Positions 30,241 to 48,040 of a stretch of DNA of 64,000 nt are shown here, piece after piece. The stretch's first letter is position 1. Each line of letters starts with the position of its first letter. Origin of the DNA: a phage. Made by a program: the position numbers and the translations under genes. The stretch lies in the NCBI GenBank assembly GCA_036252695.1, contig GCA_036252695.1_4122.1, one strand, 5' to 3'. The notes below the pieces were generated by a model. It did no database searches, was not told the DNA's origin, and worked only from the letters and a program-made list of their open reading frames with translations.

Positions 30241-30900
30241 ATGAAACTTAATGCACACAGCAAACAATACCTTAAGCACTTTAAGTACCTCAACAGTATT
30301 CAAGCAGAATCTATTACATCTGCATATACGTATCACCCAAATGTACTAAAGAAACGAAATAAAAAGAAAAAATCCAGAAATGTTCTCGTATCTAAGAACC
30401 TCAAATCGTACTTGAAGAAAAATAATATAGCTCTTGCTTTTATTAATATCTATAATACTGATTTAAAAGTATTGAGTACTAATACCAGCACAAAAGCACT
30501 AAAGAATGCATCTATCTATATACACATGGATAATATCCCGTGCACTATAATTCTATCTTTCGGGAATGTATACTTCTTCGGGAATTGTAATAGCACCCAT
30601 GATATCAGTACTGCACAATTCCAAATCGGAGATATGTACTGCATGGGTTCAGAAAAAATACACGATAACATGCACTTCTTCCAAAAGCAACGTACTAACG
30701 AAACTGATACAGTACTGCAATTCCTCAAAGAACTAGAACACAAAGAATTATCCGACGAAGAAGAATTCATGTACAGTACTGTAATCGATAATCCAGGACT
30801 CTATAAAAACGCGTACAAACTAACAAAACATGTACAGGAACTTATCAGTACTGATAAGAAATTTCATCACCTCATTACGTATATTACAAACTATGTATAA
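30241..30900 (+). CDS. Fam-F hypothetical protein (219 aa; EEEFMYSTVIDNPG motif)
   Basis: ORF with SD aaggaaaa; motif related to other Fam-F members. Confidence 0.6.
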   Translation: MKLNAHSKQYLKHFKYLNSIQAESITSAYTYHPNVLKKRNKKKKSRNVLVSKNLKSYLKKNNIALAFINIYNTDLKVLSTNTSTKALKNASIYIHMDNIPCTIILSFGNVYFFGNCNSTHDISTAQFQIGDMYCMGSEKIHDNMHFFQKQRTNETDTVLQFLKELEHKELSDEEEFMYSTVIDNPGLYKNAYKLTKHVQELISTDKKFHHLITYITNYV

Positions 30901-31078
30901 AGAATACTACATAGATAAACTCCCAATGCATCTACAATACCTTGTACCAACAGAACCATTGGGTATAGAAAAAGACTACGAAAAAGACTACTTCGTTAAG
31001 TGCACTAAATCCTCGATAGATATTGACGACTATAATCGAGTACTGTATCACATCATTTTACTAATATATAAGTACTAA
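30893..31078 (+). CDS. EYY-family B small protein
   Basis: Start at internal Met MYKEYYIDKLPMHLQ, overlapping previous stop; family N-term. Confidence 0.6.
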   Translation: MYKEYYIDKLPMHLQYLVPTEPLGIEKDYEKDYFVKCTKSSIDIDDYNRVLYHIILLIYKY

Positions 31079-31079
31079 T

Positions 31080-31259
31080 ATGCACAAACATAAAGAATTC
31101 TACTTGTCGTACCTTAATTCCGATATAGTAACATCCAATACCTTCAGTACTAAAATTATCTATAATGAATTAATGAAAGAATGTATTAAAGGTGCTATTA
31201 ACCCTAAAGATACGTATGACTTGTACTATGCAGTACTAACCCTTGTTTTCACGAAATAA
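31080..31259 (+). CDS. EYY-family B small protein (59 aa, below cutoff)
   Basis: Hand-translated MHKHKEFYLSYL... Confidence 0.5.
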   Translation: MHKHKEFYLSYLNSDIVTSNTFSTKIIYNELMKECIKGAINPKDTYDLYYAVLTLVFTK

Positions 31260-31267
31260 CACATAAT

Positions 31268-31456
31268 ATGAATAACCACAAAGAATACTACATAGATAAA
31301 CTCCCAATGTATCTACAGAGCCATATACCAAACGTTGCATTGGGAATAAAAGATGACGCAAAAACAATGTTCCAAGAATGTACTAAGTACACCCTAATGT
31401 TCGAGGATAGAACATATAAACTGTACTACATCCTCGCCCTAATATTCAAGTACTAA
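31268..31456 (+). CDS. EYY-family B small protein
   Basis: MNNHKEYYIDKLPMYLQ. Confidence 0.6.
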   Translation: MNNHKEYYIDKLPMYLQSHIPNVALGIKDDAKTMFQECTKYTLMFEDRTYKLYYILALIFKY

Positions 31457-31466
31457 AGAGAACAAT

Positions 31467-31649
31467 ATGCATAAAGAATACTACACACAATTTCTCCCCA
31501 GTATATTTGAACACTACGCCAGATATAAAGTCCCCCTGGATAACGATTTGGCAGTACTGGGATTCAATAACTGCATAGAACGAAGTATAGAAAATAGTAG
31601 TAGTTATGACCAGCTATATAACACTATCCTACTTATATTCAGGTACTAA
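31467..31649 (+). CDS. EYY-family B small protein
   Basis: MHKEYYTQFLP. Confidence 0.6.
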   Translation: MHKEYYTQFLPSIFEHYARYKVPLDNDLAVLGFNNCIERSIENSSSYDQLYNTILLIFRY

Positions 31650-31839
31650 TGTGTATAAAGAATACTACATAAAAGATTTACCACCGCACCTTCAAGGTAA
31701 TCTGTTAGAAGATGAACCTCGCGGTATAGAAATAAACTACGAAAAAGACTACTTTATTACGTGCACTAAATGCGTGATAAATTATTACAACTACAATCAA
31801 GTACTGTATCATACCCTGTACTTAGCATTAGTATTCTAA
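31650..31839 (+). CDS. EYY-family B small protein (probable GTG start)
   Basis: Family N-terminus VYKEYYIKDLPPHLQ begins at GTG right after previous stop; track ORF 31606 is an upstream extension. Confidence 0.45.
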
Positions 31840-31848
31840 GAGAACAAT

Positions 31849-32037
31849 ATGCACAAAGAATACTACACAAAATATTTCCCAATGTACCTCAGAACTAATC
31901 TATTAGATAAACCTCGCGGTATCAATGCACAAAACGATAAAGTGTACTTTACTATGTGCACTAAAGCATGTATACTAGATTTTGATAGCTACCATCGAGT
32001 ACTGTATCATGTACTGTACCTAGCTTTCGTGTACTAA
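31849..32037 (+). CDS. EYY-family B small protein
   Basis: MHKEYYTKYFPMYL. Confidence 0.6.
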   Translation: MHKEYYTKYFPMYLRTNLLDKPRGINAQNDKVYFTMCTKACILDFDSYHRVLYHVLYLAFVY

Positions 32038-32046
32038 GAGAACAAT

Positions 32047-32232
32047 ATGCATAAAGAATTCTACTTAAGCCATCTGGAACTAAACTCCCAAATGCTTATA
32101 CCACTAAAACCAATAGATATCAAGGATAAGAAAAATACCAAACAATTCCACTACCACACACTATGTGCTATCAACCCAGATTATAATACATATAAACTGT
32201 ACTACATTCTCGCCCTAATATATAGGTACTGA
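32047..32232 (+). CDS. EYY-family B small protein
   Basis: MHKEFYLSHL. Confidence 0.6.
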   Translation: MHKEFYLSHLELNSQMLIPLKPIDIKDKKNTKQFHYHTLCAINPDYNTYKLYYILALIYRY

Positions 32233-32233
32233 T

Positions 32234-32419
32234 ATGCATAGAGAATACTATATACAATTTGTTAAAGGGAACTACAAACACGCCGTCCCCGTAAACCCCT
32301 TAAATTCTAATGACCCAAGTACTATATTCTTGTTCCATGACGCAATACGTACAGTACTCAATACTAAAGATGAACAGGTGCAGTACGTATTCTTACTATT
32401 ACTTATATACAGACACTAA
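32234..32419 (+). CDS. EYY-family B small protein
   Basis: MHREYYIQFV. Confidence 0.6.
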   Translation: MHREYYIQFVKGNYKHAVPVNPLNSNDPSTIFLFHDAIRTVLNTKDEQVQYVFLLLLIYRH

Positions 32420-33239: not shown

Positions 33240-35200
33240 TATAGACAGGGGAAGCTCCGTAGGGAAAGCATTGGACAGGCTTTAACATATGTTATATATG
33301 TTAAAATTCAGCCTGCTCGACGTCTGAATTGTTAAAATTCAGCCTGGACAAATGCGATCACTAGGATTCTCCCCAGGCTAAACCCCGTAATCATATGTAG
33401 TCATAAGTAATCATATATAAACATTTATATTAGCACCGTAGAATCACAGAATGATTATATATGATTCAGTACTGATTAGTATAGACAAGATTGCTCAAGA
33501 TTGCTCAAGAATGCTAGGGAAGGATTCAGTACTGCCCCAAAAGTATTCAGTACTGAAGGTGTCGATATCCCACTAAGTAGGCAGAGGAAGTCTGCCGTAC
33601 TTTGTAGTTTCCAAGCTCCTTTTCCATTTTGCAAATTACATCAAATGTAATCAAAAGTAATCACGCAATGATTAGTACTGAATTATTACTTTCACCTTAA
33701 TTACAATTACCCTTTTACCAGTCGGGGTAAAATTCAATTACCCCTTGAGGCTCCAGCAAAAAGTTGGTTAGTACTCCATCCTAAATCTCGATCCTAAAAA
33801 TTTTGGAGTACCTATGAAATAAAAGTTGGATCTTCGAAAGTTGAAATTTACGTTGGGACGTTTATGATTTGTGGGATATAATGATGTTTGTAGTCGGGTA
33901 GTTCTCAAGAATATCAGTACTGAAAGATGAAAGAAAGTTATTGACTTTATGATTCAGTACTGTATAATGTTCTACATAGCTTCAAGGGGTGATGAGTTGC
34001 TGCGAACAATTCATTTACTCTACCTACTGTCGTGAGACAGTACAGAAAAGATAGTTCCTCCTATTGGTGGTACATCTTTTTGAACCTCATATGAAAATCG
34101 TAATAACAGTACTGATATTAACAGAATGGTATCAGTACTGATTTTAATCTAAAGCATTATGCCACCAGCACAAGCTGGTGGATTCCCTCTAACAGTATTC
34201 AGTACTACATGATAGTCTTCATCCTCCTAGGGTAACATAGTGAGGGCTATGATGGCAGTACTGAATACTCCCTTTCAAAAGATAGATCTATGGTATAGTA
34301 CTGACGGATTTTGGGTGTAGTTACCCTGGGTGGATTTTGGACGTAGATATGTCTAGCCCTCCAGAAGTCTGGAAGTAAAGATGGCTATCCATCTAGACGG
34401 CTAAACGGCTAGATTTCTGGATGGCTAGACGTTTGGACGGCTAAACGGCTAGATGGTTACACGTCTGGAAGTATAGACGGCTAAATCAAAATTTTATTTT
34501 GTTTTTTCCAATAGTTCCCCTACCGCGTGGGGATAGTTTCCCCGCAGTATCTGGAGTTAGATTTTTCTGAATCTGGAATCATTATCTTATAAACTGGGGG
34601 CAATGTCAACGGCCTGGACGGATATTTTTAAAAATTTTTTTCAGTACTGAATTTTGGGCGTAACTATGCACCCGGTGGGCTTGAGTCTTTCTCGACTTGA
34701 TGGAACTATTATACAGTACTGAAAAAAATAAAGCAATACCCTGGAAGCAAAAAAGTTTTAATTAATTTGCTTGCTATCCTGGGCCGGACTATGGTACTAT
34801 ATTTCAGTACTGAGAAAGTGCGTTTACCTGCTAGGGTGCGGGAGTGTATCCTTTTTTTATATCTTGAATTTTGGGCGTAATTCCGCACCCTCTGGGGTTT
34901 CCGCTTTCTCGCGTCTATGTAGTAATTATACGCTTTTTCAGGATCAAGTCAATACCTAAAAACAAAATAATTGAAAATAATTTAACGCGTTTAAACGGCC
35001 CGTAAAGCCCTGGAATGATTGGAATGGTGCAAATGTATAGCTTAGGTGTATTAATGCGTTAGAATGCGTCTGAGGCCGTTTTATGGGGTGTAGTAGTGAT
35101 TTGGTTGATTCAGTACTGAATGATAGTACTGAATAATAGTTCCCCTATATAGAAAGAAAACTATTTTAAAAGTACATGTAGAAAGTACTTGCAAACTATG
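33240..35200. repeat. ORF-free repeat-rich region (candidate origin, packaging site or regulatory hub)
   Basis: About 2 kb without a credible ORF; dense (T)CAGTACTGA palindromes (about 17 AGTACT by my read), short direct repeats (gattgctcaag x2, gttaaaattcagcct x2, gtaatca-type), and two ~60-bp related copies at ~34648..34715 and ~34865..34925. Confidence 0.6.
34380..34500. repeat. iteron-like direct repeats
   Basis: GACGGCTAAACGGCTAGAT at 34396..34414 and 34436..34454 plus partial copies (ggatggctagacg, gacggctaaatc) and TCTGGAAGTA twice. Confidence 0.6.
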
Positions 35201-35248
35201 TTTAAAGGCGTATAATGTTTTACATCGAGAGCGGGAACACTTCCCGCT
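35189..35248 (+). promoter_or_regulatory. early-type promoter (TTGCAA..TATAAT 35211..35216) plus 5' leader hairpin (35230..35248)
   Basis: aaagtacTTGCAAactatgtttaaaggcgTATAATgttttacatc then agcgggaa-cac-ttcccgct. Confidence 0.65.
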
Positions 35249-35271
35249 ACACTTTAAAAGAGATTAATACG

Positions 35272-35634
35272 ATGGCGACCCAAATCAATAAAATTATTGC
35301 TAACCTGGTCAACTTCCGTGAAGAGATGAAAGGTCTTCCGGCTGAAACGGTAAAAATTCACATTTCAGCTTATCGGGAACTTATTACAATGTTGCCGCTT
35401 AAGCGTGAACAATACGCCGCTACCGTGATGCTTGATGCGATGATCCATAAGATGATCGCCAGTGATTTAACGATGGTTTATCAGTATATGGGCGAAAATT
35501 TCGCGGTGTATAGTAAACCAGTACCAGGAATGGAAAGTACAGAAGTATTACACGGTTTAAATTTAAAACAAGATGCATGGGATAATATGCCTCGTTTCCT
35601 GGTATGGGCTGACAGTGGCAAAATTTACGAATAA
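35272..35634 (+). CDS. hypothetical early protein
   Basis: Start moved to Met downstream of promoter and leader hairpin (track ORF starts inside -10 box). Confidence 0.55.
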   Translation: MATQINKIIANLVNFREEMKGLPAETVKIHISAYRELITMLPLKREQYAATVMLDAMIHKMIASDLTMVYQYMGENFAVYSKPVPGMESTEVLHGLNLKQDAWDNMPRFLVWADSGKIYE

Positions 35635-35648
35635 GTTTAATAAAGTAC

Positions 35649-35707
35649 TTGCAAACTAAGTTTAAAAGCGTATAATGTTTTACATCAGGTGGGGAATAGT
35701 TCCCCAC
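35649..35707 (+). promoter_or_regulatory. early-type promoter plus leader hairpin
   Basis: TTGCAA 35649..35654, TATAAT 35671..35676, hairpin gtggggaa-tag-ttccccac 35689..35707. Confidence 0.65.
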
Positions 35708-35727
35708 TATATAAGAGGATTAAAAAA

Positions 35728-35967
35728 ATGGCTAAATCAAAAATGTTCTTAGGTCACAAAAACAAAACTCATTGGAATGTAAGCCTTTGGATTAATAACG
35801 ATGAGGCATTGTATCGGCTGGCCCAGGACTTTATTGCCGCCAATACTAATCGTAATGATGCGGCCCGTCATATGATGCTATTTTTAGAACAGACTGGGCA
35901 AGATAAAACTCCAGACGGCTTTAAGTATAGCACTACTGCGATCCGTGCGGCGATGGTTGGAATGTAA
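35728..35967 (+). CDS. hypothetical early protein (paralog of 37770..38009)
   Basis: SD aagagga; shares GHKNKTHWNVSLWINN...TPDGFKYSTTAIRAAMVGM with 37770 gene. Confidence 0.65.
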   Translation: MAKSKMFLGHKNKTHWNVSLWINNDEALYRLAQDFIAANTNRNDAARHMMLFLEQTGQDKTPDGFKYSTTAIRAAMVGM

Positions 35968-36055
35968 TAGAATAGAATTTATTTAAAGTACTATTGCACG
36001 GTGATAGTACTTTATAATAGTGTTTTATTCATACACCAACGATAAGGGCAACAGC

Positions 36056-36322
36056 ATGAATATTAAGTATTTTGCGACGCGTGAACAAGCTCGGATCGCC
36101 GCACGCCAGGACGGGGCAACGTTTAAAGATATGGGCGTACAATCGGAACGTGGTAAACGTTGGGCCATTGTAAAGCGTAGTACCGCCAGATCATTACAGT
36201 ACTGGTTAGCGGCCTTAAAAAGTCCCGATAGTGTATCGCGACGAGTGGTAGAAATAAAGCTCGACCGAAAGGGCAACCGCGTGACCGTGTACCGTACTAA
36301 AAAGATTGCAGTACTTGAATAA
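36056..36322 (+). CDS. hypothetical early protein (paralog of 49098..49493)
   Basis: Shares FATREQARIAAR..TFKDMG..RWA..RKGNRVTVY with 49098 gene. Confidence 0.6.
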   Translation: MNIKYFATREQARIAARQDGATFKDMGVQSERGKRWAIVKRSTARSLQYWLAALKSPDSVSRRVVEIKLDRKGNRVTVYRTKKIAVLE

Positions 36323-36329
36323 AAAGTAC

Positions 36330-36389
36330 TTGCAAACTATGTTTAATGGCGTATAATGTTTTACATCGAGAGCGGGAACACTTCCCGCC
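36330..36389 (+). promoter_or_regulatory. early-type promoter plus leader hairpin
   Basis: TTGCAA 36330..36335, TATAAT 36352..36357, hairpin agcgggaacacttcccgc 36371..36389. Confidence 0.65.
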
Positions 36390-36409
36390 TATAACCTGGA
36401 GTAATAAAA

Positions 36410-36640
36410 ATGACTAATATGTATATGACTGAAGTTAAAACTGTAAAAGATACTACCACGAATAAAACTACTTACTTACAGCGGATCTGCGGTGTATGGC
36501 AACGTATCAGCAAATCAAAGTACTATAAATTAACATCATATGCAAACCGTTCGGATTCATTCAGTACTGAAATAAAAGGTAATAAAGTACACCAATACGG
36601 CACTTATTATTATTATAGCCTGGACGCGATTGCAGTATAA
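36410..36640 (+). CDS. hypothetical early protein
   Basis: 76-aa ORF with SD ggag. Confidence 0.55.
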   Translation: MTNMYMTEVKTVKDTTTNKTTYLQRICGVWQRISKSKYYKLTSYANRSDSFSTEIKGNKVHQYGTYYYYSLDAIAV

Positions 36641-36887
36641 GCAGTTTACAAATCTTTACAATTGCCGGTATTGACTTATTTTGTCAGTACTGGCATAATG
36701 TATTCATTGGCAGATAAGCCGTAGCCCATAGGGTGCGGGAGTGTATCTATAGAAAAAGTAGTTTAGTATAGTTACAATTGTGCACCCGGTGGGTTAGCTG
36801 TTGTCATGGGGTATATTATGCCAGTACTTGATAATGCTGTCAATACTTTTTTAATATTCAGTACTGAAAACTATTTTTAAAAAGTAC

Positions 36888-36915
36888 TTGCAAACTATGT
36901 TTAAAGGCGTATAAT
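36888..36915 (+). promoter_or_regulatory. early-type promoter (upstream of structured element)
   Basis: TTGCAA 36888..36893, TATAAT 36910..36915. Confidence 0.6.
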
Positions 36916-36924
36916 GTTTTACAT

Positions 36925-37004
36925 CAGGACGGGGAACGAAATAAGTAACTTCCCGTTAAGTAGCCCAGGAGTAAGGCACACGAAAAACTCCCCTGATAAA
37001 ATAG
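36925..37004 (+). ncRNA. candidate structured RNA element / long leader (copy 1)
   Basis: ~80 nt between two tandem promoters; near-identical copy at 47900..47979 (3 substitutions) while flanks diverge; internal complementary arms (cgggga..tcccg; cagg..ctcccctg). Confidence 0.4.
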
Positions 37005-37005
37005 T

Positions 37006-37035
37006 TTGACAAATGTTTTTTTAAAAGCGTATAAT
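37006..37035 (+). promoter_or_regulatory. sigma70-type promoter
   Basis: TTGACA 37006..37011, 18-nt spacer, TATAAT 37030..37035. Confidence 0.6.
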
Positions 37036-37067
37036 ACTTACATCAACTACTGAATGAGGGTTACAAA

Positions 37068-37679
37068 ATGAAAACTATCACTACTACTACTTATGTTATG
37101 GATTTTTCTGAATTGAACGCAGAACAAAAAACGTCAGCTATCGAACTGGTTCGGGATCGTGAGCGTTCATGCGGTGATTATTTCTTTTCTGAGGGCGTAT
37201 ACGAATACTATAAAGAAACAATTTTGCCGGAGTATGGCATTGATGACGCTGATTTGCAATTCAGTGGTTTTTGGTCGCAAGGTGACGGTGCATCAATTAG
37301 TACTGACCACGTTGACGCAGTGAAGTTTTTACGTAAGGTAAGAGCATTAACTAAGTATCGCTCAATCCGGCACCTGCTGAATGAAGATGATTTGGCGATG
37401 AGTGTAAAGCGTTATCACTACCACTACTCGCATGAGAATACTGTAAGCGGGTACATTGAATCGGCTTACACTGATTTAACCGCAAAACAAGAAACGTTAG
37501 TTAATGAGCTTGAGGAACTACTCACTGACACTATTCGTGAATTGTCCCGCAAGTTGTACCGTGATTTAGAGAATGCATATGAGGATCAATTCACTACTGA
37601 AAACATTACGGCACTGATTGAGGGTAACGAATATCAATTCAATGTTATTGATGGCGTAGTAGAATCAATCGAATATTAA
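37068..37679 (+). CDS. hypothetical protein (203 aa)
   Basis: ORF with SD gaggg; E. coli-like codons. Confidence 0.7.
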   Translation: MKTITTTTYVMDFSELNAEQKTSAIELVRDRERSCGDYFFSEGVYEYYKETILPEYGIDDADLQFSGFWSQGDGASISTDHVDAVKFLRKVRALTKYRSIRHLLNEDDLAMSVKRYHYHYSHENTVSGYIESAYTDLTAKQETLVNELEELLTDTIRELSRKLYRDLENAYEDQFTTENITALIEGNEYQFNVIDGVVESIEY

Positions 37680-37769
37680 TTTAAAAAGTACTTGCAAACT
37701 AAGTTTAAAAGCGTATAATACTTTATATCGAGGCGGGGAGTGGTTCCCCGCTCAAACGAGGATTTAAAA

Positions 37770-38009
37770 ATGGCTAGTACTAAAACTTACAACGGACACA
37801 AAAACAAAACTCATTGGAATGTAAGCCTTTGGATTAATAACGGTGAGTCATTGTATCGGCTTGCTCAAAGTTGCATCGCACAAAGTAGAACTAAAGATAT
37901 TGCAGCGGAATGTATGTACCGCAGATTAAAAGCCAACGGTACTACTACAACGCCGGACGGCTTTAAGTATAGCACTACTGCGATCCGTGCTGCAATGGTT
38001 GGAATGTAA
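37770..38009 (+). CDS. hypothetical early protein (paralog of 35728..35967)
   Basis: Promoter TTGCAA/TATAAT (37714..37719) and hairpin 37734..37751 upstream. Confidence 0.65.
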   Translation: MASTKTYNGHKNKTHWNVSLWINNGESLYRLAQSCIAQSRTKDIAAECMYRRLKANGTTTTPDGFKYSTTAIRAAMVGM

Positions 38010-38067
38010 TATTCAGTACTGTAACAATGGCGGGGAATGGTTCCCGCCTTTATTGAGGGTTTATCTA

Positions 38068-38328
38068 ATGAGTAAAGTAATTAACTATACAGTACTAAGC
38101 AAGTCATTATCTATCAGTCATTGCACCGATGGTTATTGGCTATTTGATGAAACGCGTGGCATGAATTTAGCTATGCGTGCAAAAACTGCTGAGGCGGCGT
38201 ATATTCAAGCACTGGAATACTACCAGGAACGTTTAAAGGAAGTAGAAGAAGATTATAAAAGCCTCAAAGCGAAAGTAGATCATTTCGTCGGTCAATTCAT
38301 CGAGGAAGACGACGACAAACAATATTGA
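38068..38328 (+). CDS. hypothetical early protein
   Basis: Start after hairpin ggcggggaatggttcccgcc (38029..38048) and SD gaggg. Confidence 0.55.
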   Translation: MSKVINYTVLSKSLSISHCTDGYWLFDETRGMNLAMRAKTAEAAYIQALEYYQERLKEVEEDYKSLKAKVDHFVGQFIEEDDDKQY

Positions 38329-38336
38329 AAAAGTAC

Positions 38337-38396
38337 TTGCAATTAGTTTCAAGTACTGTATAATGGTTTACATCAAAGGGGGAAATGGTTCTCCCT
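38337..38396 (+). promoter_or_regulatory. early-type promoter plus leader hairpin
   Basis: TTGCAA 38337..38342, TATAAT 38359..38364, hairpin agggggaaatggttctccct 38377..38396. Confidence 0.6.
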
Positions 38397-38414
38397 GGTA
38401 ATGAGGAAAATAAA

Positions 38415-38636
38415 ATGGCTAATATCACTACTCTTTCCCAACTGGAAGCACTGGTTAAATCTATGCGGGAACATGCCGACAAAATCGGCGTACAAGATCC
38501 AGCCGTTTGCTTCTGCGACGAATTGAATGATGATACACTGGTAATAGCAGAAGTCCAGGACGTTTCTAACTATTCCTCGCGTTACACTGGCGGCGTAGCA
38601 AATAAAGGTGACTTCTGTTTATACCTTACAAAATAA
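38415..38636 (+). CDS. hypothetical early protein
   Basis: Start at Met after leader hairpin; SD gagga. Confidence 0.55.
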   Translation: MANITTLSQLEALVKSMREHADKIGVQDPAVCFCDELNDDTLVIAEVQDVSNYSSRYTGGVANKGDFCLYLTK

Positions 38637-38640
38637 CAAC

Positions 38641-38671
38641 GCGGGGAGATAATAACTCCCCGTTACTTTTT
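38641..38671 (+). terminator. intrinsic terminator
   Basis: cggggag-ataataa-ctccccg followed by T run. Confidence 0.55.
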
Positions 38672-38804
38672 CAGTACTGAATCATTTAATAGACGGATCT
38701 ATGCACCCGGTGGGTTAGTGACTGTTTCGTCTTGATGTAGTAATTATGCCAGTACTGGATGCACTTGTCAACAATTATTTTTCAAATACTTTTTATTAAA
38801 ATAC

Positions 38805-38858
38805 TTGCAATTAGTTTTTAAACGCGTATAATGTTTTGCATAGGGGGAGCGGTTCCCC
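38805..38858 (+). promoter_or_regulatory. early-type promoter plus leader hairpin
   Basis: TTGCAA 38805..38810, TATAAT 38827..38832, hairpin gggggagcggttcccc 38843..38858. Confidence 0.6.
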
Positions 38859-38879
38859 TGGTAACTAAGGAATAATAAA

Positions 38880-39137
38880 ATGCTTGAACAAATCAAATCA
38901 ACGTCTGCGAATGTAACGGGAACGGTAGCACACTTTACTAGTGATGAATCGCGGGGCGTTCCCTATTGTGCTGTACATGTAAACACTGAGGGTAACTACT
39001 GGTTTACGGTTTACGGATCATATTCATTTGGACGGCCAGGGCATCAAAAAATTCTGGATAAAGTACAACCAACGGGTAAAAATATCACTGCCGAAATGTT
39101 TTATAAAAATCATAAAGTACTTGATAATAGTTTTTAG
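38880..39137 (+). CDS. hypothetical early protein
   Basis: 85-aa ORF, SD aagga. Confidence 0.6.
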   Translation: MLEQIKSTSANVTGTVAHFTSDESRGVPYCAVHVNTEGNYWFTVYGSYSFGRPGHQKILDKVQPTGKNITAEMFYKNHKVLDNSF

Positions 39138-39199
39138 TACTGTATAATATTTTACATCGCAAGGGGGAGCGGTTCCCCCTGGTAACTAAGGATAATCAA

Positions 39200-39499
39200 A
39201 TGAAAATTGCAATCATCGCCCTGGCTTTATCTGTTTCCTCTTTCGCTGTTAATGCGTCATTAGATGTAAGTAGTGAAAAATTCATTCAGTGCACTGTTGC
39301 AATGACCGATGAAAGAACTGGCGAGATTGTATTAAAGGATTTAGAGATCCAGCCAGAAGCATTTAAAAACGGGCCGTTCCATGAAGAAGACGAAAAAGGT
39401 AGCACGACAATTTATTACGATGCAAGTACTAAACGCGGTTCGGTCACTGTTATGGATACTGAGAAAGTAACTCATACTGGCGTTATTAATTGCCGTTGA
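39200..39499 (+). CDS. small secreted/periplasmic protein (predicted signal peptide)
   Basis: N-term MKIAIIALALSVSSFAVNA-S fits signal peptidase I pattern; promoter and hairpin upstream. Confidence 0.6.
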   Translation: MKIAIIALALSVSSFAVNASLDVSSEKFIQCTVAMTDERTGEIVLKDLEIQPEAFKNGPFHEEDEKGSTTIYYDASTKRGSVTVMDTEKVTHTGVINCR

Positions 39500-39520
39500 T
39501 AGATACTACGGGGTAACATC

Positions 39521-39751
39521 ATGACTAAGCGAATTGTTTTACTTAACGAAAGCAGTACTACACAACTACTTAACGCCGTGCATTATGATATTGAAACGAG
39601 CGTTAATCTTATCAGTACTGTAGTACTATTGGACACTGGAAAGGTCGCCAATGATAAAGCGATTGCAGGTATATTAACGGATCTTGAGCCTGGTAGCAGT
39701 GCACCAATAACGTTAAATGGTAAAGTGTTTAATATTTTACTCACTGATTAA
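39521..39751 (+). CDS. hypothetical protein
   Basis: 76-aa ORF; followed by terminator. Confidence 0.5.
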   Translation: MTKRIVLLNESSTTQLLNAVHYDIETSVNLISTVVLLDTGKVANDKAIAGILTDLEPGSSAPITLNGKVFNILLTD

Positions 39752-39756
39752 GTACA

Positions 39757-39780
39757 TAGCCCACCTGGTGGGCTTTTTTG
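39757..39780 (+). terminator. intrinsic terminator
   Basis: agcccacc..ggtgggct stem then TTTTTT. Confidence 0.7.
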
Positions 39781-39984
39781 TTTTTGTAGTATCGTAGTAC
39801 TGAGATACTTTAAAAATAGTTTTAAAAAAGTAGTTGACATTACCACAAAAAGGCGTAGAATGTATTACATCAAGACGGGGAGCACTAAGTAGACCGCCAG
39901 TAAGTCGAACGAAAAACTGGACACGTCGAGAAAACTTTGATACACTAATAAACGTAAACTAAACTTTAATTGAGGATTTATAAA

Positions 39985-40467
39985 ATGGCTAATGTAAAAT
40001 CATTCATCAAAGCACTGGTAGCAAATGAAACTAACGTAGCGGCAGAGATCCTGGCTGAACTGGATAACGATACCATGAAAGCGGTACGCAATAATTTTAA
40101 CATCGCTTACAGTACTGCGAAAGAACTACAAGCAAATAAAGCGGCAGAAATTGAAGCGGCAAAGGCGGCCCGTGAAGCAGAACTACAAGCAACAATTGAA
40201 AGTATCCAGGCGGCAGTAGTTGGATTGGATCTGGAAGTAGTTACAGAGATGGCACAAAAAGCCCTGGCGGTTAAGTATGGGGAAGACAAGCCAGAAGTAA
40301 AAGCCAAAAAATGGATTCAGGAACGCGTAGCGGTAGTACTGGACAACGGGGAAGAATATCTGATTCCGGTGCGTGGTAACTGCATTGCGGTAGTACTGGA
40401 TGCGATTAACTCCAGTGGTATGACTCGCGAGGAATGGATCGAAGCTCATCGCAAAGTGGAAGCATAA
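39985..40467 (+). CDS. hypothetical protein (Ala/Glu-rich, predicted helical)
   Basis: Start MANVKSF after SD gagga; long structured leader from promoter at ~39836. Confidence 0.6.
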   Translation: MANVKSFIKALVANETNVAAEILAELDNDTMKAVRNNFNIAYSTAKELQANKAAEIEAAKAAREAELQATIESIQAAVVGLDLEVVTEMAQKALAVKYGEDKPEVKAKKWIQERVAVVLDNGEEYLIPVRGNCIAVVLDAINSSGMTREEWIEAHRKVEA

Positions 40468-40488
40468 CAATTAAAGTACTGAATCACT

Positions 40489-40515
40489 AGCCCACTGCAT
40501 AAGTGGGCTTTTTTG
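40489..40515 (+). terminator. intrinsic terminator
   Basis: gcccact-gcataa-gtgggc then TTTTTTG. Confidence 0.7.
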
Positions 40516-40751
40516 TGTTTATCGTTTACCAGGCCACCAGCACCGCCTAGAATCGATTCTAACGCATTAAACTGATTATCTGATGCATCGCCCTAGCTGG
40601 TGGCGTTAAGGTCGTTAGAATGCGATTGAGAGCGTTTAAAGTATTTTGCAAAAAGTAATAAAAAGTACTTGCACGATTAAGAGATTAGCGTATAATGTTT
40701 TACATCGAGAGGGGGAAACGGTTCTCCTTCCAAATCAAAGGAATTAAAACA

Positions 40752-40979
40752 ATGGCTATCGTAATCACTCGCGTAACTGGTACTACTGGCAATTCTTCTA
40801 CTGTTGCTGTAATTACTAATAAGAAAGGTGCGGAACTACATTTTGCAATGTATAACTGGTCAGTTGATGAGTTTGGTCAGTACGCTAGTGTAGAATACAT
40901 TGAAACCTATCAAGTGCCGTCGATTAGTTTAACTGATTTGGGCGTTGAGCGTATCCTTTGCCTGGATGAATTAAATTAA
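40752..40979 (+). CDS. hypothetical early protein
   Basis: Start MAIVITRV after promoter and hairpin gggggaaacggttctcc. Confidence 0.55.
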   Translation: MAIVITRVTGTTGNSSTVAVITNKKGAELHFAMYNWSVDEFGQYASVEYIETYQVPSISLTDLGVERILCLDELN

Positions 40980-41065
40980 AAAAGTACTTGCAAAGTAAAT
41001 CGAATAAAGTATAATACATTACATCAAGGGGAGAAATGGTTCTCCCTGATAATGAGGAAACTAAT

Positions 41066-41209
41066 ATGAAAACTTGTCAATGTGGTAAAAAATCTATTAC
41101 TGGTTTAAAGCGGGGCGTTGCTCTTTGTCAGTACCATTATAATTTACAAGTATGGGGTAAAGAATGGGCCGACCAGGTGGAAGCAGCAAAGAAAGCAAAA
41201 AGTAAGTAA
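41066..41209 (+). CDS. small Cys-containing protein (47 aa; CQCG..CQYH)
   Basis: Hand-translated ORF behind promoter and hairpin with SD gagga; below track cutoff. Confidence 0.4.
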   Translation: MKTCQCGKKSITGLKRGVALCQYHYNLQVWGKEWADQVEAAKKAKSK

Positions 41210-41228
41210 AAATATTATCACAGTACTA

Positions 41229-41257
41229 TTGACATAGTTTGATAGTACTGACATAAT
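41229..41257 (+). promoter_or_regulatory. class-2 promoter (AGTACT-flanked TTGACA..CATAAT)
   Basis: cagtactaTTGACAtagtttgatagtactgaCATAAT; same motif at ~41510, ~44590, ~52315. Confidence 0.55.
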
Positions 41258-41288
41258 AGATTTTATCAAGACAACTGAGGAAAATAAA

Positions 41289-41501
41289 ATGGCTATCATC
41301 ACTAAAATCAAAGTAAGTAAAACCCTGGTTAAACTTGAACAAGTGAAAGCAGGTTATAAAGTATCTTGGTGCGGTATGTATCGGATGTTCGCAGATATTG
41401 ATGAAGCAATCAATTATTACAGCGACACGGTTAAAAACTTTGTTCGTGCTGATGTGGTTATGGCAGTGGCAACGCACAAAGCAGCGAAAGAAAGTAAGTA
41501 A
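41289..41501 (+). CDS. hypothetical early protein (paralog of 44663..44842)
   Basis: MAIITKIKV..; similar N-term and length to 44663 gene. Confidence 0.55.
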   Translation: MAIITKIKVSKTLVKLEQVKAGYKVSWCGMYRMFADIDEAINYYSDTVKNFVRADVVMAVATHKAAKESK

Positions 41502-41590
41502 AAATATTATCACAGTACTATTGACATAGTTTGATAGTACTGGCATAATAGATTTTATCAAGACAACATATTAATTTAAGGAATACAAAA

Positions 41591-41914
41591 ATGGCTAAAA
41601 CTATCATTAACACCGTTTCCCTGGCTGCAATCCGTGCAATCAATGTTGACGGTAAACGTTGGACTGATTCATATGGCAATACTTATCATTCTTGTCATGT
41701 AAGCGTCGAACTGGATAACGGTTTGAATGATCTGGCGGTTGAATCATTTACTTATGGCTATGAAGATGCATATCAACAAACGGCGTTAGATCTATTAAAG
41801 GAATCAGTAGACGGGCTTAATACTGATGAAACCTCCCTTACTCGTTTGTGCAATGATCTTAATATCCCGTTGCATTGTACTGTACAGAATGTTAAACGCA
41901 AAAAAGATCTTTAA
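41591..41914 (+). CDS. hypothetical protein (paralog of 48675..48998)
   Basis: Shares RWTDSxGNTYHSCxVS and C-terminal VKRKKD with 48675 gene. Confidence 0.65.
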   Translation: MAKTIINTVSLAAIRAINVDGKRWTDSYGNTYHSCHVSVELDNGLNDLAVESFTYGYEDAYQQTALDLLKESVDGLNTDETSLTRLCNDLNIPLHCTVQNVKRKKDL

Positions 41915-41994
41915 TTAGCTTTACTTTATGCAGATACTTTGATATAGTGTCTGCATAGGGGAAAGAAATTAAATTAACTTAAGAGGAACGTATA

Positions 41995-42264
41995 ATGAAA
42001 AATATCAGTACTTTAATCGATGCAGGTACTCATGTTCGTCGGTCTATGGTTGCAACCAGTACTACAAAACAAGTAGCGAGCGGTTATCTTGTATTTGTGC
42101 ACGATGGTAAACTCCTGGAACGTTCAATCAATTTTGATGTTAAAAACAATTGCCGTTTTATTATCTTTAAGCGTGAACAATATAAAATTGATTTACCAGC
42201 GAAGCCCATAAGCGGGGCGTACAACGTGCAATCATTGTTTGAACGTCAACCATACACCTATTAA
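41995..42264 (+). CDS. hypothetical protein
   Basis: 89-aa ORF with SD gagga. Confidence 0.55.
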   Translation: MKNISTLIDAGTHVRRSMVATSTTKQVASGYLVFVHDGKLLERSINFDVKNNCRFIIFKREQYKIDLPAKPISGAYNVQSLFERQPYTY

Positions 42265-42315
42265 TCAAAACATCGTTAGCGGTCGATTTAGGCCGCTTGT
42301 ATTGGGGATTATACC

Positions 42316-42486
42316 ATGAACGTTAATCAAGTACTGAATGAGATCGAAAGCATCATTAAACCAATGAAACGCATTGATGCTATGTTAACACCGGAAGAAT
42401 GCCGCCTTTATGAGCGTTACAGTGTGGAACAAGCCCAGGAAATGGCCCGTATCCGTCCGGTTGCCAGTACTGATAAGGCGGCGTAA
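42316..42486 (+). CDS. hypothetical small protein (56 aa)
   Basis: Hand-translated; coupled to next gene (TAATATG). Confidence 0.35.
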   Translation: MNVNQVLNEIESIIKPMKRIDAMLTPEECRLYERYSVEQAQEMARIRPVASTDKAA

Positions 42487-42487
42487 T

Positions 42488-42697
42488 ATGCTTACTGTAC
42501 AGGATAAGATCGACATCTTAAAGGTTAATATGTATGTGATTGATGCCGTACCTGGTAAAGTATTTGCATACGATGATTCTAATCGCAGTCCGTTTTATTG
42601 CAGTCATGTAGTTGGATACGTGCCGTTGGCGTATGTTATAGAAAGAGTGGTTGATGCAGCATACAAACATTTTTTAGAAAATAATACTTGCAATTAG
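42488..42697 (+). CDS. hypothetical protein
   Basis: Start at internal Met MLTVQDK right after upstream stop. Confidence 0.45.
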   Translation: MLTVQDKIDILKVNMYVIDAVPGKVFAYDDSNRSPFYCSHVVGYVPLAYVIERVVDAAYKHFLENNTCN

Positions 42698-42767
42698 TTT
42701 TCAGTACTGTATAATGATTTACATCGAGAGCGGGAATAGTTCCCGCCTCACTTTTAAGGAATATGAA

Positions 42768-42914
42768 ATGAAAGCATCAAAAAAGAGTAATACTAAGAAA
42801 GCATGTTCACCTTTCGCTGGGGTATTCCCTTTACGTTTTGTTGATGAAGTAGTTTCCTACCCGCCGGGCCTTACTCCTGAGATGGTAGAAAGTTTGCGTA
42901 AATCTAAAAAATAG
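42768..42914 (+). CDS. hypothetical small basic protein (48 aa)
   Basis: Promoter, leader hairpin agcgggaatagttcccgc and SD aagga upstream. Confidence 0.45.
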   Translation: MKASKKSNTKKACSPFAGVFPLRFVDEVVSYPPGLTPEMVESLRKSKK

Positions 42915-42996
42915 TACTTGCAATTAGTTTTTAGTACTGTATAATAGTTTACATGAAGGGGAAAACGTTCCCCTTACACCTAACGAGGAAAGTATA

Positions 42997-43248
42997 ATGG
43001 AAACAATTTTAATCAAAGACACTGCTACTACTGTAACTTATGATAATGATTGCATTATCCCAGGGACTGAGTACGGCGAACGTGTACCCGTTCAAGTAGA
43101 GATTGATACCACATACATCGACAAGGCTGACCAGTGTATCACTATTGTAATTGGTGAATATCGTTTTCTACCAGAAGAGATCCAAAAATGGCAGAATATG
43201 ATTGACCGTGCGAAATTAGTCGCACAAAGTTTAAAATACAAAGTTTAA
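42997..43248 (+). CDS. hypothetical early protein
   Basis: Promoter, hairpin ggggaaaacgttcccc, SD gagga. Confidence 0.55.
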   Translation: METILIKDTATTVTYDNDCIIPGTEYGERVPVQVEIDTTYIDKADQCITIVIGEYRFLPEEIQKWQNMIDRAKLVAQSLKYKV

Positions 43249-43334
43249 AATAATACTTGCAATTAGTTTTTAAACGCGTATAATGTTTTACATGAAGGGG
43301 AGAAATGATTCTCCCCAATAACAGGAGAAACAAA

Positions 43335-43487
43335 ATGAAACAATACAACGCTCGGTTTGATGTTACTATCGGTAACGGCAAAGGTCAATTCTCTTTCAGT
43401 ACTCGCAAAAGTTATACAGAAAACTTCCTGCGTAATTGTGCACTGACCGCCGCACAAATTAAACATTACTTTCAGGCTAAAAAATGA
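43335..43487 (+). CDS. hypothetical small protein (50 aa)
   Basis: Promoter and hairpin ggggagaaatgattctcccc upstream; SD aggaga. Confidence 0.45.
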   Translation: MKQYNARFDVTIGNGKGQFSFSTRKSYTENFLRNCALTAAQIKHYFQAKK

Positions 43488-43860: not shown

Positions 43861-43927
43861 TCAATAAGCGTATAATGTTTTACATCGAAAGGGGAAACGG
43901 TTTCCCCTGGTAATAAGGAAACAAATC

Positions 43928-45085: not shown

Positions 45086-45091
45086 GATTAT

Positions 45092-47714: not shown

Positions 47715-47899
47715 AAATAATTGAAAAAGGGATTGACTCCGGTCAATCCCTTTGCTATTATATACGCATAGAAACAAATTAGCCCACCGGGTGCATAAAT
47801 GTATCTATTGTTTGCTGGTGGCTAGTACTATCAAGTACTGAAAACTATTTTTAAAAAAGTACTTGCATTGTACTTAGAATCAAGTATAATGTTTTACAT

Positions 47900-47979
47900 C
47901 AGGACGGGGAACGAAATAAGTAACTTCCCGTTAAGTAGTCCAGGAGTAAGACATACGAAAAACTCCCCTGATAAAATAG
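47900..47979 (+). ncRNA. candidate structured RNA element / long leader (copy 2)
   Basis: Near-identical to 36925..37004; again sits between two tandem promoters. Confidence 0.4.
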
Positions 47980-48040
47980 TTTGACAATAGAAATTAAACG
48001 AGTATAATACTTACATCAACCACTGATAAGGAAACATAAA

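What the first reader, a model, noticed from the sequence alone, without database searches (positions are those of the whole stretch)
36925..37004. Near-identical ~80-nt structured element between tandem promoters, present twice (second copy 47900..47979)
Both copies sit between an upstream early promoter and a second TTGACA/TATAAT promoter and differ by only 3 substitutions, while the flanking promoters and downstream genes diverge. A related long leader precedes gene 39985 (~39850..39960, shared agacgggga / cgaaaaact). Conservation above flanks implies function, such as an sRNA, riboregulator or protein-binding leader.
Basis: seen in the sequence. Interest (0 to 1): 0.6.

Follow-up and report, generated by a model that had tools for sequence, protein, structure and literature searches.

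The report
Conserved early-leader pseudoknot RNA in phages
The repeated 80-base element is a real, strongly conserved, knotted RNA fold made at the very start of early phage transcripts by the host's RNA polymerase; the same fold sits unannotated between the A1 and A2 promoters of the model phage T7 and hundreds of its relatives, and its job is still unknown.

Summary
Copies at 36923-36997 and 47898-47972 differ by 3 bases, and 39869-39941 shares the core. A covariance model finds no other copy in the window.

It is not a local oddity. The window comes from an Asteriusvirus-like E. coli jumbo phage. The same core, (U/C)AAGUA-GNC-[S2]-GN'C-xx-A(C/U/A)GAA..-[S2'], also occurs:
- in a few Vequintavirinae and Stephanstirmvirinae,
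- in other roughly 350-kb Salmonella, Klebsiella and Erwinia phages,
- in 50-kb Vibrio podophages,
- in at least 486 T7-like genomes, T7 itself at 551-590 between promoters A1 and A2.

Covariation supports an H-type pseudoknot (S1, S2) closed by a third helix, which in the window pairs the first transcribed bases with the element's 3' end. All three A/B substitutions fall on S1 pairs: one compensatory pair, plus one change from A.C to A-U.

The motif has no Rfam match. It is absent from E. coli genomes and plasmids, and effectively absent from 185,579 bacterial and archaeal species genomes.

It is not a terminated sRNA, an ORF, a tRNA or a gene-specific riboswitch. My best guess, which is inference only, is a put-like nascent RNA acting on host RNA polymerase. 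The rivals are a stable decoy RNA and a 5' stabiliser.

The parts
36888..36915 (+). Promoter 1 of copy A (TTGCAA-16-TATAAT, A/T-rich UP-like region upstream); inferred start A36923
   Evidence: start inferred from the annotated A1 promoter of phage 13a, which ends at the A of ATCGAG 7 nt after the -10
36923..36997 (+). Copy A, whole RNA domain (75 nt)
36923..36928 (+). P0 5' strand AUCAGG (first transcribed bases); pairs with 36992-36997 CCUGAU
   Evidence: MFE fold; an equivalent closing helix covaries across classes
36929..36956 (+). Hairpin Pa: ACGGGGAA / UUCCCGU with loop CGAAAUAAGUAAC (36937-36949)
   Evidence: stem variants ACGGGG/CCCCGU, ACGGGGA/UCCCCGU and UCCCUGU in other phages
36957..36965 (+). 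Conserved UAAGUA (36957-36962), then S1 5' strand GCC (36963-36965)
36968..36972 (+). S2 5' strand GGAGU; pairs with 36987-36991 ACUCC
36975..36986 (+). S1 3' strand GGC (36975-36977), then conserved A-rich loop 3 ACACGAAAA (36978-36986)
36987..36997 (+). S2 3' strand ACUCC (36987-36991), directly followed by P0 3' strand CCUGAU (36992-36997)
37006..37035 (+). Promoter 2 of copy A (TTGACA-18-TATAAT); gene 37068-37679 (phrog_5162, unknown function) follows
47863..47890 (+). Promoter 1 of copy B (TTGCAT-16-TATAAT); inferred start A47898
47898..47972 (+). Copy B, whole RNA domain. P0 47898-903/47967-972; Pa 47904-931; UAAGUA 47932-937; S1 GUC 47938-940 / GAC 47950-952; S2 47943-947/47962-966
47981..48008 (+). 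Promoter 2 of copy B (TTGACA-16-TATAAT); gene 48041-48316 (phrog_14947, unknown function) follows
39834..39861 (+). Promoter of the third, hairpin-less copy (TTGACA-16-TAGAAT), just after terminator 39758-39774; inferred start A39869
39869..39941 (+). Third copy. Outer helix AUCAA 39869-873 / UUGAU 39937-941; P0 GACG 39874-877 / CGUC 39924-927; UAAGUA 39886-891; S1 GAC 39892-894 / GUC 39904-906; S2 CCAGU 39897-901 / ACUGG 39916-920; then gene 39985-40467 and terminator 40489-40509

Best explanation
SHOWN: the element is one member of a widespread, phage-restricted family of compact RNA folds. The fold is encoded in the first about 75 nt of transcripts started by host sigma70 RNA polymerase at the upstream member of tandem early promoters.

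The fold is an H-type pseudoknot:
- S1 is GNC/GN'C, probably extended by GUA/UAC.
- Loop 1 is 1-2 nt and S2 is 5-7 bp.
- Loop 3 is A-rich, ..A(C/U/A)GAAAA.
- The 3' strand of S2 runs straight into a closing helix, P0.

In the window copies P0 pairs the first transcribed bases (AUCAGG) with CCUGAU, and a leader hairpin sits in between. In T7-like phages the 5' strand of P0 is the loop of an upstream hairpin, giving a double pseudoknot, and its 3' strand is usually the -35 of promoter A2.

INFERRED (most likely mechanism): the RNA acts on its own account, not on the gene behind it. Like the put RNAs of phage HK022, it would fold as it leaves the polymerase and bind the elongating host RNA polymerase that made it. 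That would make promoter-1 polymerases resistant to pausing and termination, while polymerases from promoter 2 and the many ordinary promoters stop at the local terminators. The consensus promoter just downstream may also act as a sigma70-dependent pause that gives the knot time to fold.
For: Structure:
- In 40 distinct sequences from all classes, 95.9% of cells are paired against 76.2% in shuffles. The covariation score is 0.471 against 0.113 (0 of 500 shuffles reach it), and slid controls reach at most 0.081.
- The middle pair of S1 is AU 23, UA 10, CG 6, GC 1. All five S2 pairs show double changes. S1 was not part of the search model.
- In a MAFFT alignment of 30 T7-class sequences, P0 is 99.3% paired, with double changes at all five pairs.
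- P0 variants across classes are GUCAA/UUGAC, GAUUAG/CUAAUC, GUCGGU/ACCGAC, GUCAUC/GAUGAC, AUCAGG/CCUGAU, CGGC/GCCG, GUCAG/CUGAC, GACGG/CCGUC and GUUGAG/CUCAAC.
- The three A/B differences are one compensatory pair plus one A.C to A-U change.

Distribution:
- 45 records hold the full element and 486 T7-like records hold the core, one copy each and never annotated.
- 64 of 80 T7-like loci chosen only by RNA polymerase homology have it upstream of gene 1.
- It is also in Vibrio podophages.
- It is absent from E. coli genomes and plasmids, and from bacterial species genomes apart from one phage fragment and one chance hit.

Arguments for a put-like mechanism:
- The context and size match putL: about 73 nt, first paired base A3 of the transcript, just downstream of an early sigma70 promoter, two similar copies per genome, a minor-groove triplex, no protein cofactor, activity independent of the RNA tether, and sigma-dependent pausing proposed to aid folding (PMC9378689).
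- The only thing these unrelated phages obviously share is use of the host polymerase for early genes.
- The downstream genes vary.
- There is no expression platform.
- Each window copy heads a unit that is followed by an intrinsic terminator at 39758, 40489 or 49517.
Against: - There are no transcript, binding or termination data; the mechanism rests on analogy.
- The element lies upstream of promoter 2 (and of A2 and A3 in T7), so most early transcripts lack it. Known cis antitermination signals, such as boxA in T7-like leaders, lie downstream of all promoters.
- The fold differs from put, and the model finds nothing in HK022.
- The third copy heads a one-gene unit that ends in a strong terminator only 0.6 kb away.
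- From memory: decades of in vitro work on T7 DNA report efficient termination at TE and Rho-sensitive early transcription, which argues against strong antitermination from A1.
Confidence: 0.35

Rival explanations
1. Stand-alone early RNA acting in trans. Promoter 1 plus the knot is in effect an RNA gene inserted in front of an ordinary promoter. After processing or 3' trimming back to helix P0, a nuclease-resistant RNA of about 75 nt with both ends paired accumulates. It would sequester or recruit a conserved host factor, such as ribosomal protein S1 or the 30S subunit, RNase E or the degradosome, Hfq, or a widespread defence nuclease.
For: - It explains why the element sits upstream of promoter 2/A2/A3.
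- The first transcribed base is paired to the element's 3' end, as in stable RNAs.
- It is independent of the downstream genes.
- It is sporadic in Vequintavirinae and Stephanstirmvirinae at about 90% identity, like a mobile accessory cassette.
- It is restricted to virulent phages.
- From established T7 biology (from memory): RNase III cuts at R0.3 and releases the A1 leader from the mRNAs.
- Precedent (from memory): the pseudo-ToxI decoy RNA of a Vequintavirinae phage.
Against: - There is no terminator or recognisable processing site after the element.
- No partner is known.
- Near-universal presence in T7-like phages of many host genera, including Vibrio and Aeromonas, argues against a strain-specific defence target.
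- The conserved unpaired bases could be purely architectural (UAA/GAN-like).
Confidence: 0.2
2. 5' stabiliser. By burying the triphosphate end in helix P0, stacked on a very stable pseudoknot, the element blocks RppH and 5'-end-dependent RNase E entry or scanning. Promoter-1 transcripts would then live longer than those from promoter 2.
For: - The 5' end is paired in the window, K11-like, L172, L041 and Hallingskeid classes.
- The element occupies exactly the position of the simple G+C-rich hairpin that follows the roughly 40 ordinary promoters of this region, and its hairpin Pa resembles that hairpin.
- From memory: 5' stem-loops are established stabilisers (ompA).
Against: - A simple hairpin would be enough, so this does not explain the invariant unpaired bases or a covarying three-helix knot.
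- Only 3 of about 45 promoters in the window, and only A1 in T7, carry it.
- In T7 the leader is cut away from the mRNAs by RNase III (from memory), so it cannot stabilise them in cis.
Confidence: 0.15
3. Ligand-sensing aptamer (riboswitch-like). The fold, an H-type pseudoknot with an A-rich third loop, resembles preQ1-I and SAM-II aptamers and could sense a host metabolite or an immune signalling nucleotide.
For: Topology and size. Conserved unpaired bases cluster around the S1/S2 junction.
Against: - No Rfam family matches, even at E<=10.
- Loop 2 varies from 0 to 4 nt.
- There is no terminator or SD-sequestering platform.
- The downstream genes are unrelated.
- It is absent from bacteria.
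Confidence: 0.05
4. DNA-level or non-functional explanations. These are: a relic of recombination between promoter cassettes, an UP or operator site for promoter 2, or a 31-codon ORF starting at the ATG inside TATAATG.
For: - All three A/B substitutions are synonymous third positions in that ORF.
- The promoters are recombination-prone repeats.
- A 10-nt inverted repeat brackets the element.
Against: - The ORF start lies upstream of the inferred transcription start and has no SD.
- The frame is broken by a stop in phage outra, by a 2-nt deletion in 121Q-type copies, and by a stop in the third copy.
- Compensatory changes, G.U pairs and variable spacing to promoter 2 (0-40 nt) show selection on RNA pairing, not on a duplex DNA site.
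Confidence: 0.03

Closest known systems
HK022 put RNAs (putL/putR), nascent-RNA processive antiterminators
   Same: Phage-encoded and about 70-75 nt. They start within the first bases of an early sigma70 transcript, occur as two similar copies per genome, contain an A-minor/triplex-type element, need no phage protein, and do not depend on which gene follows (PMC9378689).
   Different: put is two stem-loops in a V shape; this is an H-type pseudoknot closed by a third helix. There is no sequence or profile similarity. put occurs in temperate lambdoid phages, whereas this element is in virulent phages and is absent from E. coli genomes. It lies upstream of a second promoter. Activity on RNA polymerase is untested.
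preQ1-I riboswitch and other compact H-type pseudoknots with an A-rich third loop (SAM-II, luteovirus frameshift knots)
   Same: A knot of 34-40 nt, loop 1 of 1-2 nt, and an A-rich strand placed to lie in the minor groove of stem 1.
   Different: There is no Rfam match and no conserved ligand-pairing base (loop 2 is 0-4 nt). It is not linked to queuosine genes, not in a coding frame, and has no expression platform.
T4 gene 32 leader pseudoknot (autogenous translational operator)
   Same: A 5'-proximal H-type pseudoknot in a phage mRNA leader.
   Different: That element is tied to one gene and its product. Here the downstream genes differ and have no known function, and another promoter intervenes.
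Type III antitoxin RNAs (ToxI) and phage pseudo-ToxI decoys
   Same: A small pseudoknot RNA with a GAAA-containing single strand. There is a phage-encoded precedent in a Vequintavirinae phage (from memory).
   Different: There is no tandem repeat array, since copies are single and kilobases apart. There is no ToxN-like gene nearby and no Rfam hit.
EAR (eps-associated RNA) of Bacillales
   Same: A pseudoknotted RNA proposed to confer processive antitermination without a dedicated protein (from memory).
   Different: EAR is about 120 nt, lies inside an operon of Gram-positive bacteria, and shows no match in the Rfam scans.

Membership tests
HK022 put RNA | Lies just downstream of a phage early sigma70 promoter, beginning within the first bases of the transcript | tested here: met
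   Promoters at 36888-36915, 47863-47890 and 39834-39861. The element starts at the inferred +1. The start is inferred from the annotated A1 of phage 13a, not measured.
HK022 put RNA | Two long stem-loops (V shape) with a triplex in stem I (PMC9378689) | tested here: not met
   Covariation supports crossing helices S1/S2 plus the closing helix P0, which is a pseudoknot.
HK022 put RNA | Sequence or profile similarity to putL/putR | tested here: not met
   Model R1 run over the whole HK022 genome with filters off: best hit 11.5 bits, and not in the early region. Rfam holds no put model to test the reverse direction.
HK022 put RNA | Binds the beta' zinc-binding domain and suppresses pausing and termination | not testable with these tools
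   Needs biochemistry or genetics.
preQ1-I riboswitch (RF00522) | Match to the family covariance model | tested here: not met
   No family reaches the gathering score in the window. No preQ1 hit at E<=10 around copy A or T7 490-640.
preQ1-I riboswitch (RF00522) | Conserved ligand-pairing C at the end of loop 2, and control of queuosine genes through SD sequestration | tested here: not met
   Loop 2 is UAA, AUAA, CUAA or G, or is absent. The downstream proteins have no known function and differ between copies.
Type III antitoxin (ToxI-like) / pseudo-ToxI | Tandem direct repeats of a 34-45-nt unit | tested here: not met
   There are three isolated copies 3-8 kb apart and no further match in the window.
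Type III antitoxin (ToxI-like) / pseudo-ToxI | Adjacent ToxN/AbiQ-type endoribonuclease gene (for a genuine TA locus) | tested here: not met
   The downstream ORFs have no such Pfam or PHROG assignment.
T4 gene 32 operator | Sits in the leader of the ssDNA-binding protein gene it regulates | tested here: not met
   The downstream genes are phrog_5162, phrog_27871 and phrog_14947. Other phages have different genes there.
tRNA / tmRNA | Cloverleaf or tmRNA detected by ARAGORN | tested here: not met
   0 genes in the window.
Small protein gene | Reading frame kept among homologues | tested here: not met
   Stop codons or frameshifts appear in outra, the 121Q-type copies and the third copy.

The most novel reading that the evidence does not exclude
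A previously unrecognised class of phage RNA, present even in T7, that reprogrammes or neutralises a core host machine during the first seconds of infection without any phage protein. The target could be the transcribing RNA polymerase, the ribosome/S1 or the degradosome. The tandem-promoter layout of early regions (A1-knot-A2) would then exist to make and fold this RNA.
Probability: 0.3. Interest if true: 0.85.

Novelty: new variant of a known kind. Interest (0 to 1): 0.7.

Why it matters
T7 and its early promoters A1-A3 are among the best-studied objects in molecular biology, and A1 templates are standard in transcription biochemistry. A covarying double pseudoknot in the A1 leader appears in no annotation I saw, has no Rfam family, and turned up in none of the papers I could search. 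It is conserved in hundreds of T7-like genomes and shared with jumbo myoviruses, rV5-like phages and Vibrio podophages.

That points to an overlooked step of host take-over that depends only on host components. If it acts on RNA polymerase, it would be a second, structurally distinct example of put-type RNA control, and it would explain why early regions use tandem promoters. If it is a decoy, it would be an RNA-based host-control or anti-defence device. Either way the question is directly testable in T7 with existing genetics and in vitro systems, and the motif is a useful marker for annotating early regions.

Tried and rejected
- **tRNA/tmRNA:** none found.
- **Rfam:** nothing at gathering score for the window. 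Only noise at E<=10 for copy A and for T7 490-640.
- **31-aa ORF from the ATG in TATAATG:** it looked tempting because all 3 substitutions are synonymous, but the frame is broken in homologues.
- **boxA near the window copies:** only chance-level matches.
- **First IMG/VR pattern:** it had one N too many and found nothing. An exact 25-mer also found nothing. The corrected gapped pattern worked, but about half of its hits were chance matches in coding DNA, which I removed by context and pairing.
- **Homology to the host rrnB P1-P2 spacer:** only a short similarity in the initial transcribed sequence, no BLAST match and no model hit.
- **Prophage or plasmid origin:** no matches.
- **Membership in the put family:** no similarity.
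- **Literature searches** for a description of the T7 A1-A2 element, by sequence strings and by keywords: nothing relevant. Older subscription papers could not be searched.
- **Automated search for the closing helix without a distance limit:** it picked up A/T-rich promoter repeats upstream of the start site. I redid it with limits.

Full report
**1. The observation**

They differ at three positions only: 36964/47939 C/T, 36976/47951 G/A and 36979/47954 C/T. The spacers of the promoters on either side and the genes behind them diverge.

- Each copy sits between a sigma70-type promoter (36888-36915; 47863-47890) and a perfect TTGACA/TATAAT promoter (37006-37035; 47981-48008).
- The third leader (39869-39941) shares a 33-nt core. 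The pattern occurs three times in the window and never in 100 shuffles.
- A covariance model built later and run with filters off finds exactly these three sites, at 55-61 bits. Everything else scores 11.5 bits or less.

**2. Setting**

The window is 92-95% identical to Asteriusvirus-type E. coli jumbo phages such as PBECO4, 121Q and G17.

- From about 33.9 to 54 kb the + strand carries dozens of near-consensus promoters. Each is followed by ACAUCGAGAG.., a short G+C-rich hairpin, an SD and a small ORF.
- In several complete genomes this region lies a few kb from the left end, inside the annotated direct terminal repeat.
- Work on the related phage CBB reads such RpoD-like promoters with UP elements as the early, host-take-over region (PMC5259590).
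- The element occupies the place of the ordinary leader hairpin at only 3 of about 45 promoters.

**3. It is not local**

The full 80-mer is present at 88-100% identity in 45 phage records.

- All Asteriusvirus records have it, with 2-4 places each.
- Unexpectedly, so do seven roughly 140-146-kb Vequintavirinae/Stephanstirmvirinae phages (outra, muut, A73, W70, A7_1, A5-4, EmilieFrey). In each of the three I read (outra, A73, muut) the layout is promoter 1, element, promoter 2, but different genes follow.
- The core of the third copy led to T7-like phages. In phiA1122 and 13a it lies between the annotated host-polymerase promoters A1 and A2. In T7 itself it is TAAGTAGACAGCCTGATAAGTCGCACGAAAAACAGG at 551-585, running into the A2 -35 TTGACA.
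- A 66-nt T7 query finds 486 phage records, one place each. Their hosts are Escherichia, Klebsiella, Salmonella, Yersinia, Enterobacter, Citrobacter, Shigella, Serratia, Aeromonas and others. Apart from A2 promoter/-35 marks in a few records, no feature for the element itself is annotated under the match in any row listed.
- Pattern scans added metagenomic T7-like contigs, roughly 350-366-kb Salmonella, Klebsiella and Erwinia phages, and a divergent form in 50-kb Vibrio podophages.
- Among 80 T7-like loci chosen only by RNA polymerase homology, 64 have the knot upstream of gene 1. Most of the rest have too little upstream sequence.
- The same pattern is essentially absent from 185,579 bacterial and archaeal species genomes: one phage fragment in a MAG and one chance hit that fails the pairing test. 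BLAST finds nothing in 5,426 complete E. coli genomes or 72,556 plasmids.

**4. Anatomy**

Reading the variants side by side gives a consistent fold:
- conserved (U/C)AAGUA;
- stem S1, GNC with GN'C;
- loop 1, usually A;
- stem S2, 5-7 bp;
- loop 2, 0-4 nt;
- xx-A(C/U/A)GAAA.. as loop 3;
- the S2 3' strand, followed after 0-1 nt (3 in the hairpin-less third copy) by the 3' strand of a closing helix, P0.

S1 and S2 cross, which makes an H-type pseudoknot. The counts are as follows.

- On 40 distinct sequences aligned by the model (which contained S2 and P0 but not S1), 95.9% of cells pair against 76.2% in shuffles. Covariation is 0.471 against 0.113 (0 of 500 shuffles reach it), and slid controls reach at most 0.081.
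- The middle S1 pair takes all four Watson-Crick forms (AU 23, UA 10, CG 6, GC 1) with no mismatch. The third S1 pair changes C-G to U-A once. Every S2 pair shows double changes.
- An earlier count on 21 hand-picked cores gave the same picture. Those cores had been pre-filtered for pairing, so I give it less weight.
- A proposed extension of S1 (GUA with UAC) hardly varies and is neither supported nor contradicted.
- G.U pairs, for example 11 at the outer S2 pair, fit the + strand RNA and not its complement.

The closing helix P0 is the most variable in sequence and the best supported.

- In a plain MAFFT alignment of 30 T7-class sequences it is 99.3% paired, with double changes at all five pairs.
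- In T7-like phages its 5' strand is the loop of a covarying hairpin (CCGG-GGUCAA-CCGG and variants). The whole is therefore a double pseudoknot.
- Its 3' strand is usually UUGAC, the -35 of A2. Where P0 has another sequence (ACCGAC, GAUGAC, CUAAUC, UUAGC, GUAAC) the next promoter is displaced downstream. Pairing is therefore the constraint, not the promoter.
- In the window copies, K11-like phages, L172, L041, LTH01 and Hallingskeid, the 5' strand of P0 lies at or within a few bases of the first transcribed base.

For copy A the parts are:

| Part | Coordinates |
|---|---|
| P0 | 36923-28 / 36992-97 |
| Hairpin Pa | 36929-56 |
| UAAGUA | 36957-62 |
| S1 | 36963-65 / 36975-77 |
| S2 | 36968-72 / 36987-91 |

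The minimum-energy fold recovers P0, Pa and S2. The start site is inferred from the annotated A1 of phage 13a, where +1 is the A of ATCGAG, 7 nt after the -10. No transcript data were available.

The three differences between copies A and B all fall on S1 positions: C:G becomes U:A at its middle pair, and A.C becomes A-U at one pair of its proposed extension.

**5. What it is not**

- It is not a tRNA or tmRNA.
- It belongs to no Rfam family, at gathering score or at E<=10.
- It is not a conserved ORF. The 31-codon frame that makes all three substitutions synonymous starts inside the -10 hexamer and is broken in outra, in 121Q-type copies and in the third copy.
- It is not a terminated sRNA. 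Nothing terminator-like lies between the element and promoter 2.
- It is not a gene-specific regulator. The genes behind it differ and have no known function.
- It is not a host element copied by phages.
- It is not a sequence relative of HK022 put.

**6. How it may work (inference)**

The facts to explain are these:
- a rigid, closed fold with invariant unpaired bases;
- a position at the extreme 5' end of transcripts made by host polymerase;
- one to three copies per genome;
- placement upstream of a second promoter;
- indifference to the downstream gene;
- sharing among phages that have little in common except early use of the host polymerase of gamma-proteobacteria.

The closest functional precedent is put RNA. 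It is about 73 nt, paired from the third base of the transcript, lies just behind an early promoter and occurs in two similar copies. It contains a minor-groove triplex and binds the beta' zinc-binding domain. It suppresses pausing and termination without any protein and without needing the RNA tether, and sigma-dependent pausing is proposed to help it fold (PMC9378689).

I therefore rank a put-like action on the transcribing polymerase first, at about 0.35. Under this reading:
- the consensus promoter just downstream could double as a sigma70-dependent pause;
- the layout would give two classes of polymerase, processive ones from promoter 1 and terminable ones from promoter 2 and the ordinary promoters;
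- each window copy indeed heads a unit bounded by intrinsic terminators at 39758, 40489 and 49517.

Against it:
- the fold is different;
- cis signals such as boxA lie downstream of all promoters in T7-like leaders;
- the third copy heads a one-gene unit;
- from memory, T7 early transcription terminates normally at TE in vitro.

The rivals are ranked as follows.
- **Stand-alone stable RNA acting in trans (about 0.2).** This explains the position upstream of promoter 2, the paired ends and the sporadic, cassette-like spread to rV5-like phages. It lacks a defined 3' end and a partner.
- **5' stabiliser (about 0.15).** This fits the buried 5' end. It does not explain the sequence conservation, the rarity among promoters, or T7, where RNase III severs the leader from the mRNAs (from memory).
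- **Ligand sensor (about 0.05).**

**7. A structural note**

The conserved UAA before GUA and the GAA(A) after UAC face each other across the end of S1. From memory, that is the arrangement of the UAA/GAN internal-loop module. The hairpin loop of the window class (ACGAAAUAAGUAAC) carries the same two signatures joined head to tail. So the 'invariant' bases may be architectural rather than a protein-recognition site. This is unresolved.

**8. Verdict**

The element is a new RNA family of a known general kind. Its presence, unannotated, in T7 makes it worth experimental follow-up.

Noticed in passing
window 43720-43757, 47726-47763, 51015-51052, 52941-52978; 36722-36753 and 36780-36800; 47780-47810: A perfect 12-bp hairpin, AAAGGGATTGACTCCGGTCAATCCCTTT plus GCTATTATAT, also reads as a TTGACT-17-TATTAT promoter. 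It marks unit boundaries. About 30 nt later comes a conserved TAGCCCACCGGGTGCA..TGTATCTAT motif. Upstream of copy A that motif occurs twice in inverted orientation, behind convergent promoter-like sites. The same motif is in Salmonella phage Munch (L006, about 3185-3215).
   Followed up: no
window 6400-28200, minus strand: An array of about 18 paralogous genes of about 1.2 kb. They share conserved 5' ends (complement of ..AAAGGTAACAT) and a conserved upstream box, CCTTTATTCATTATACTATATTTAATACAAA (families D1, D2, D6, D12).
   Followed up: no
window 35170-54000, + strand: About 45 near-consensus sigma70 promoters share the initial transcribed sequence ACAUCGAGAG(G/C)GGG plus a G+C-rich hairpin. 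This closely resembles the start of the T7 A1 transcript (AUCGAGAGGGACACGG), which suggests a common A1-type promoter-leader module spread among unrelated coliphages.
   Followed up: partly
L187 (E. coli rrnB P1-P2, 210-310) versus T7-like A1 leaders (e.g. L011 480-530, L026): The first about 20 nt of rrnB P1 RNA (CUGACACGGAACAACGGC) resemble the A1 initial transcribed region of T7-like phages (GACACGG(A/C)AACAAC(G/C)G). Both systems use tandem promoters followed by boxA. There is no BLAST match and no pseudoknot in the rrnB spacer.
   Followed up: partly
window 36868-36877 / 36998-37007 (and the same pair around copy B): A 10-nt inverted repeat, AAACTATTTT / AAAATAGTTT, brackets the element. 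One arm is in the UP region of promoter 1 and the other is just before the -35 of promoter 2. It could be chance in A/T-rich DNA or a trace of how the cassette moves.
   Followed up: no
window 36937-36949 and 47912-47924: The hairpin loop CGAAAUAAGUAAC repeats, joined and in swapped order, the two conserved single-stranded signatures of the pseudoknot (UAAGUA and ACGAA). The loop varies in parallel in other phages (AUGAAAUAAGUAAC, ACCAAACAAGUAAC).
   Followed up: partly
L001 389-447 and L003 664-722 (phages outra and muut): A weak second match to the model (15.6 bits, E 0.69) lies inside an annotated ORF: TAAATTAGCC..TAAGGCATACGAAGAA. It may be a decayed copy or chance.
   Followed up: no
window 30880-32270: Seven copies of a 43-nt repeat containing AAAGAATACTACA, spaced about 190 nt apart (family D19). 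This suggests a tandem set of very small units or genes just before the early region.
   Followed up: no
L188 (Escherichia phage CMSTMSU, record flagged unverified): Its copy has lost CAG on the 5' side of S2 and one C on the 3' side. Pairing is kept in a 4-bp S2. This is either a natural compensated deletion or sequencing error.
   Followed up: no
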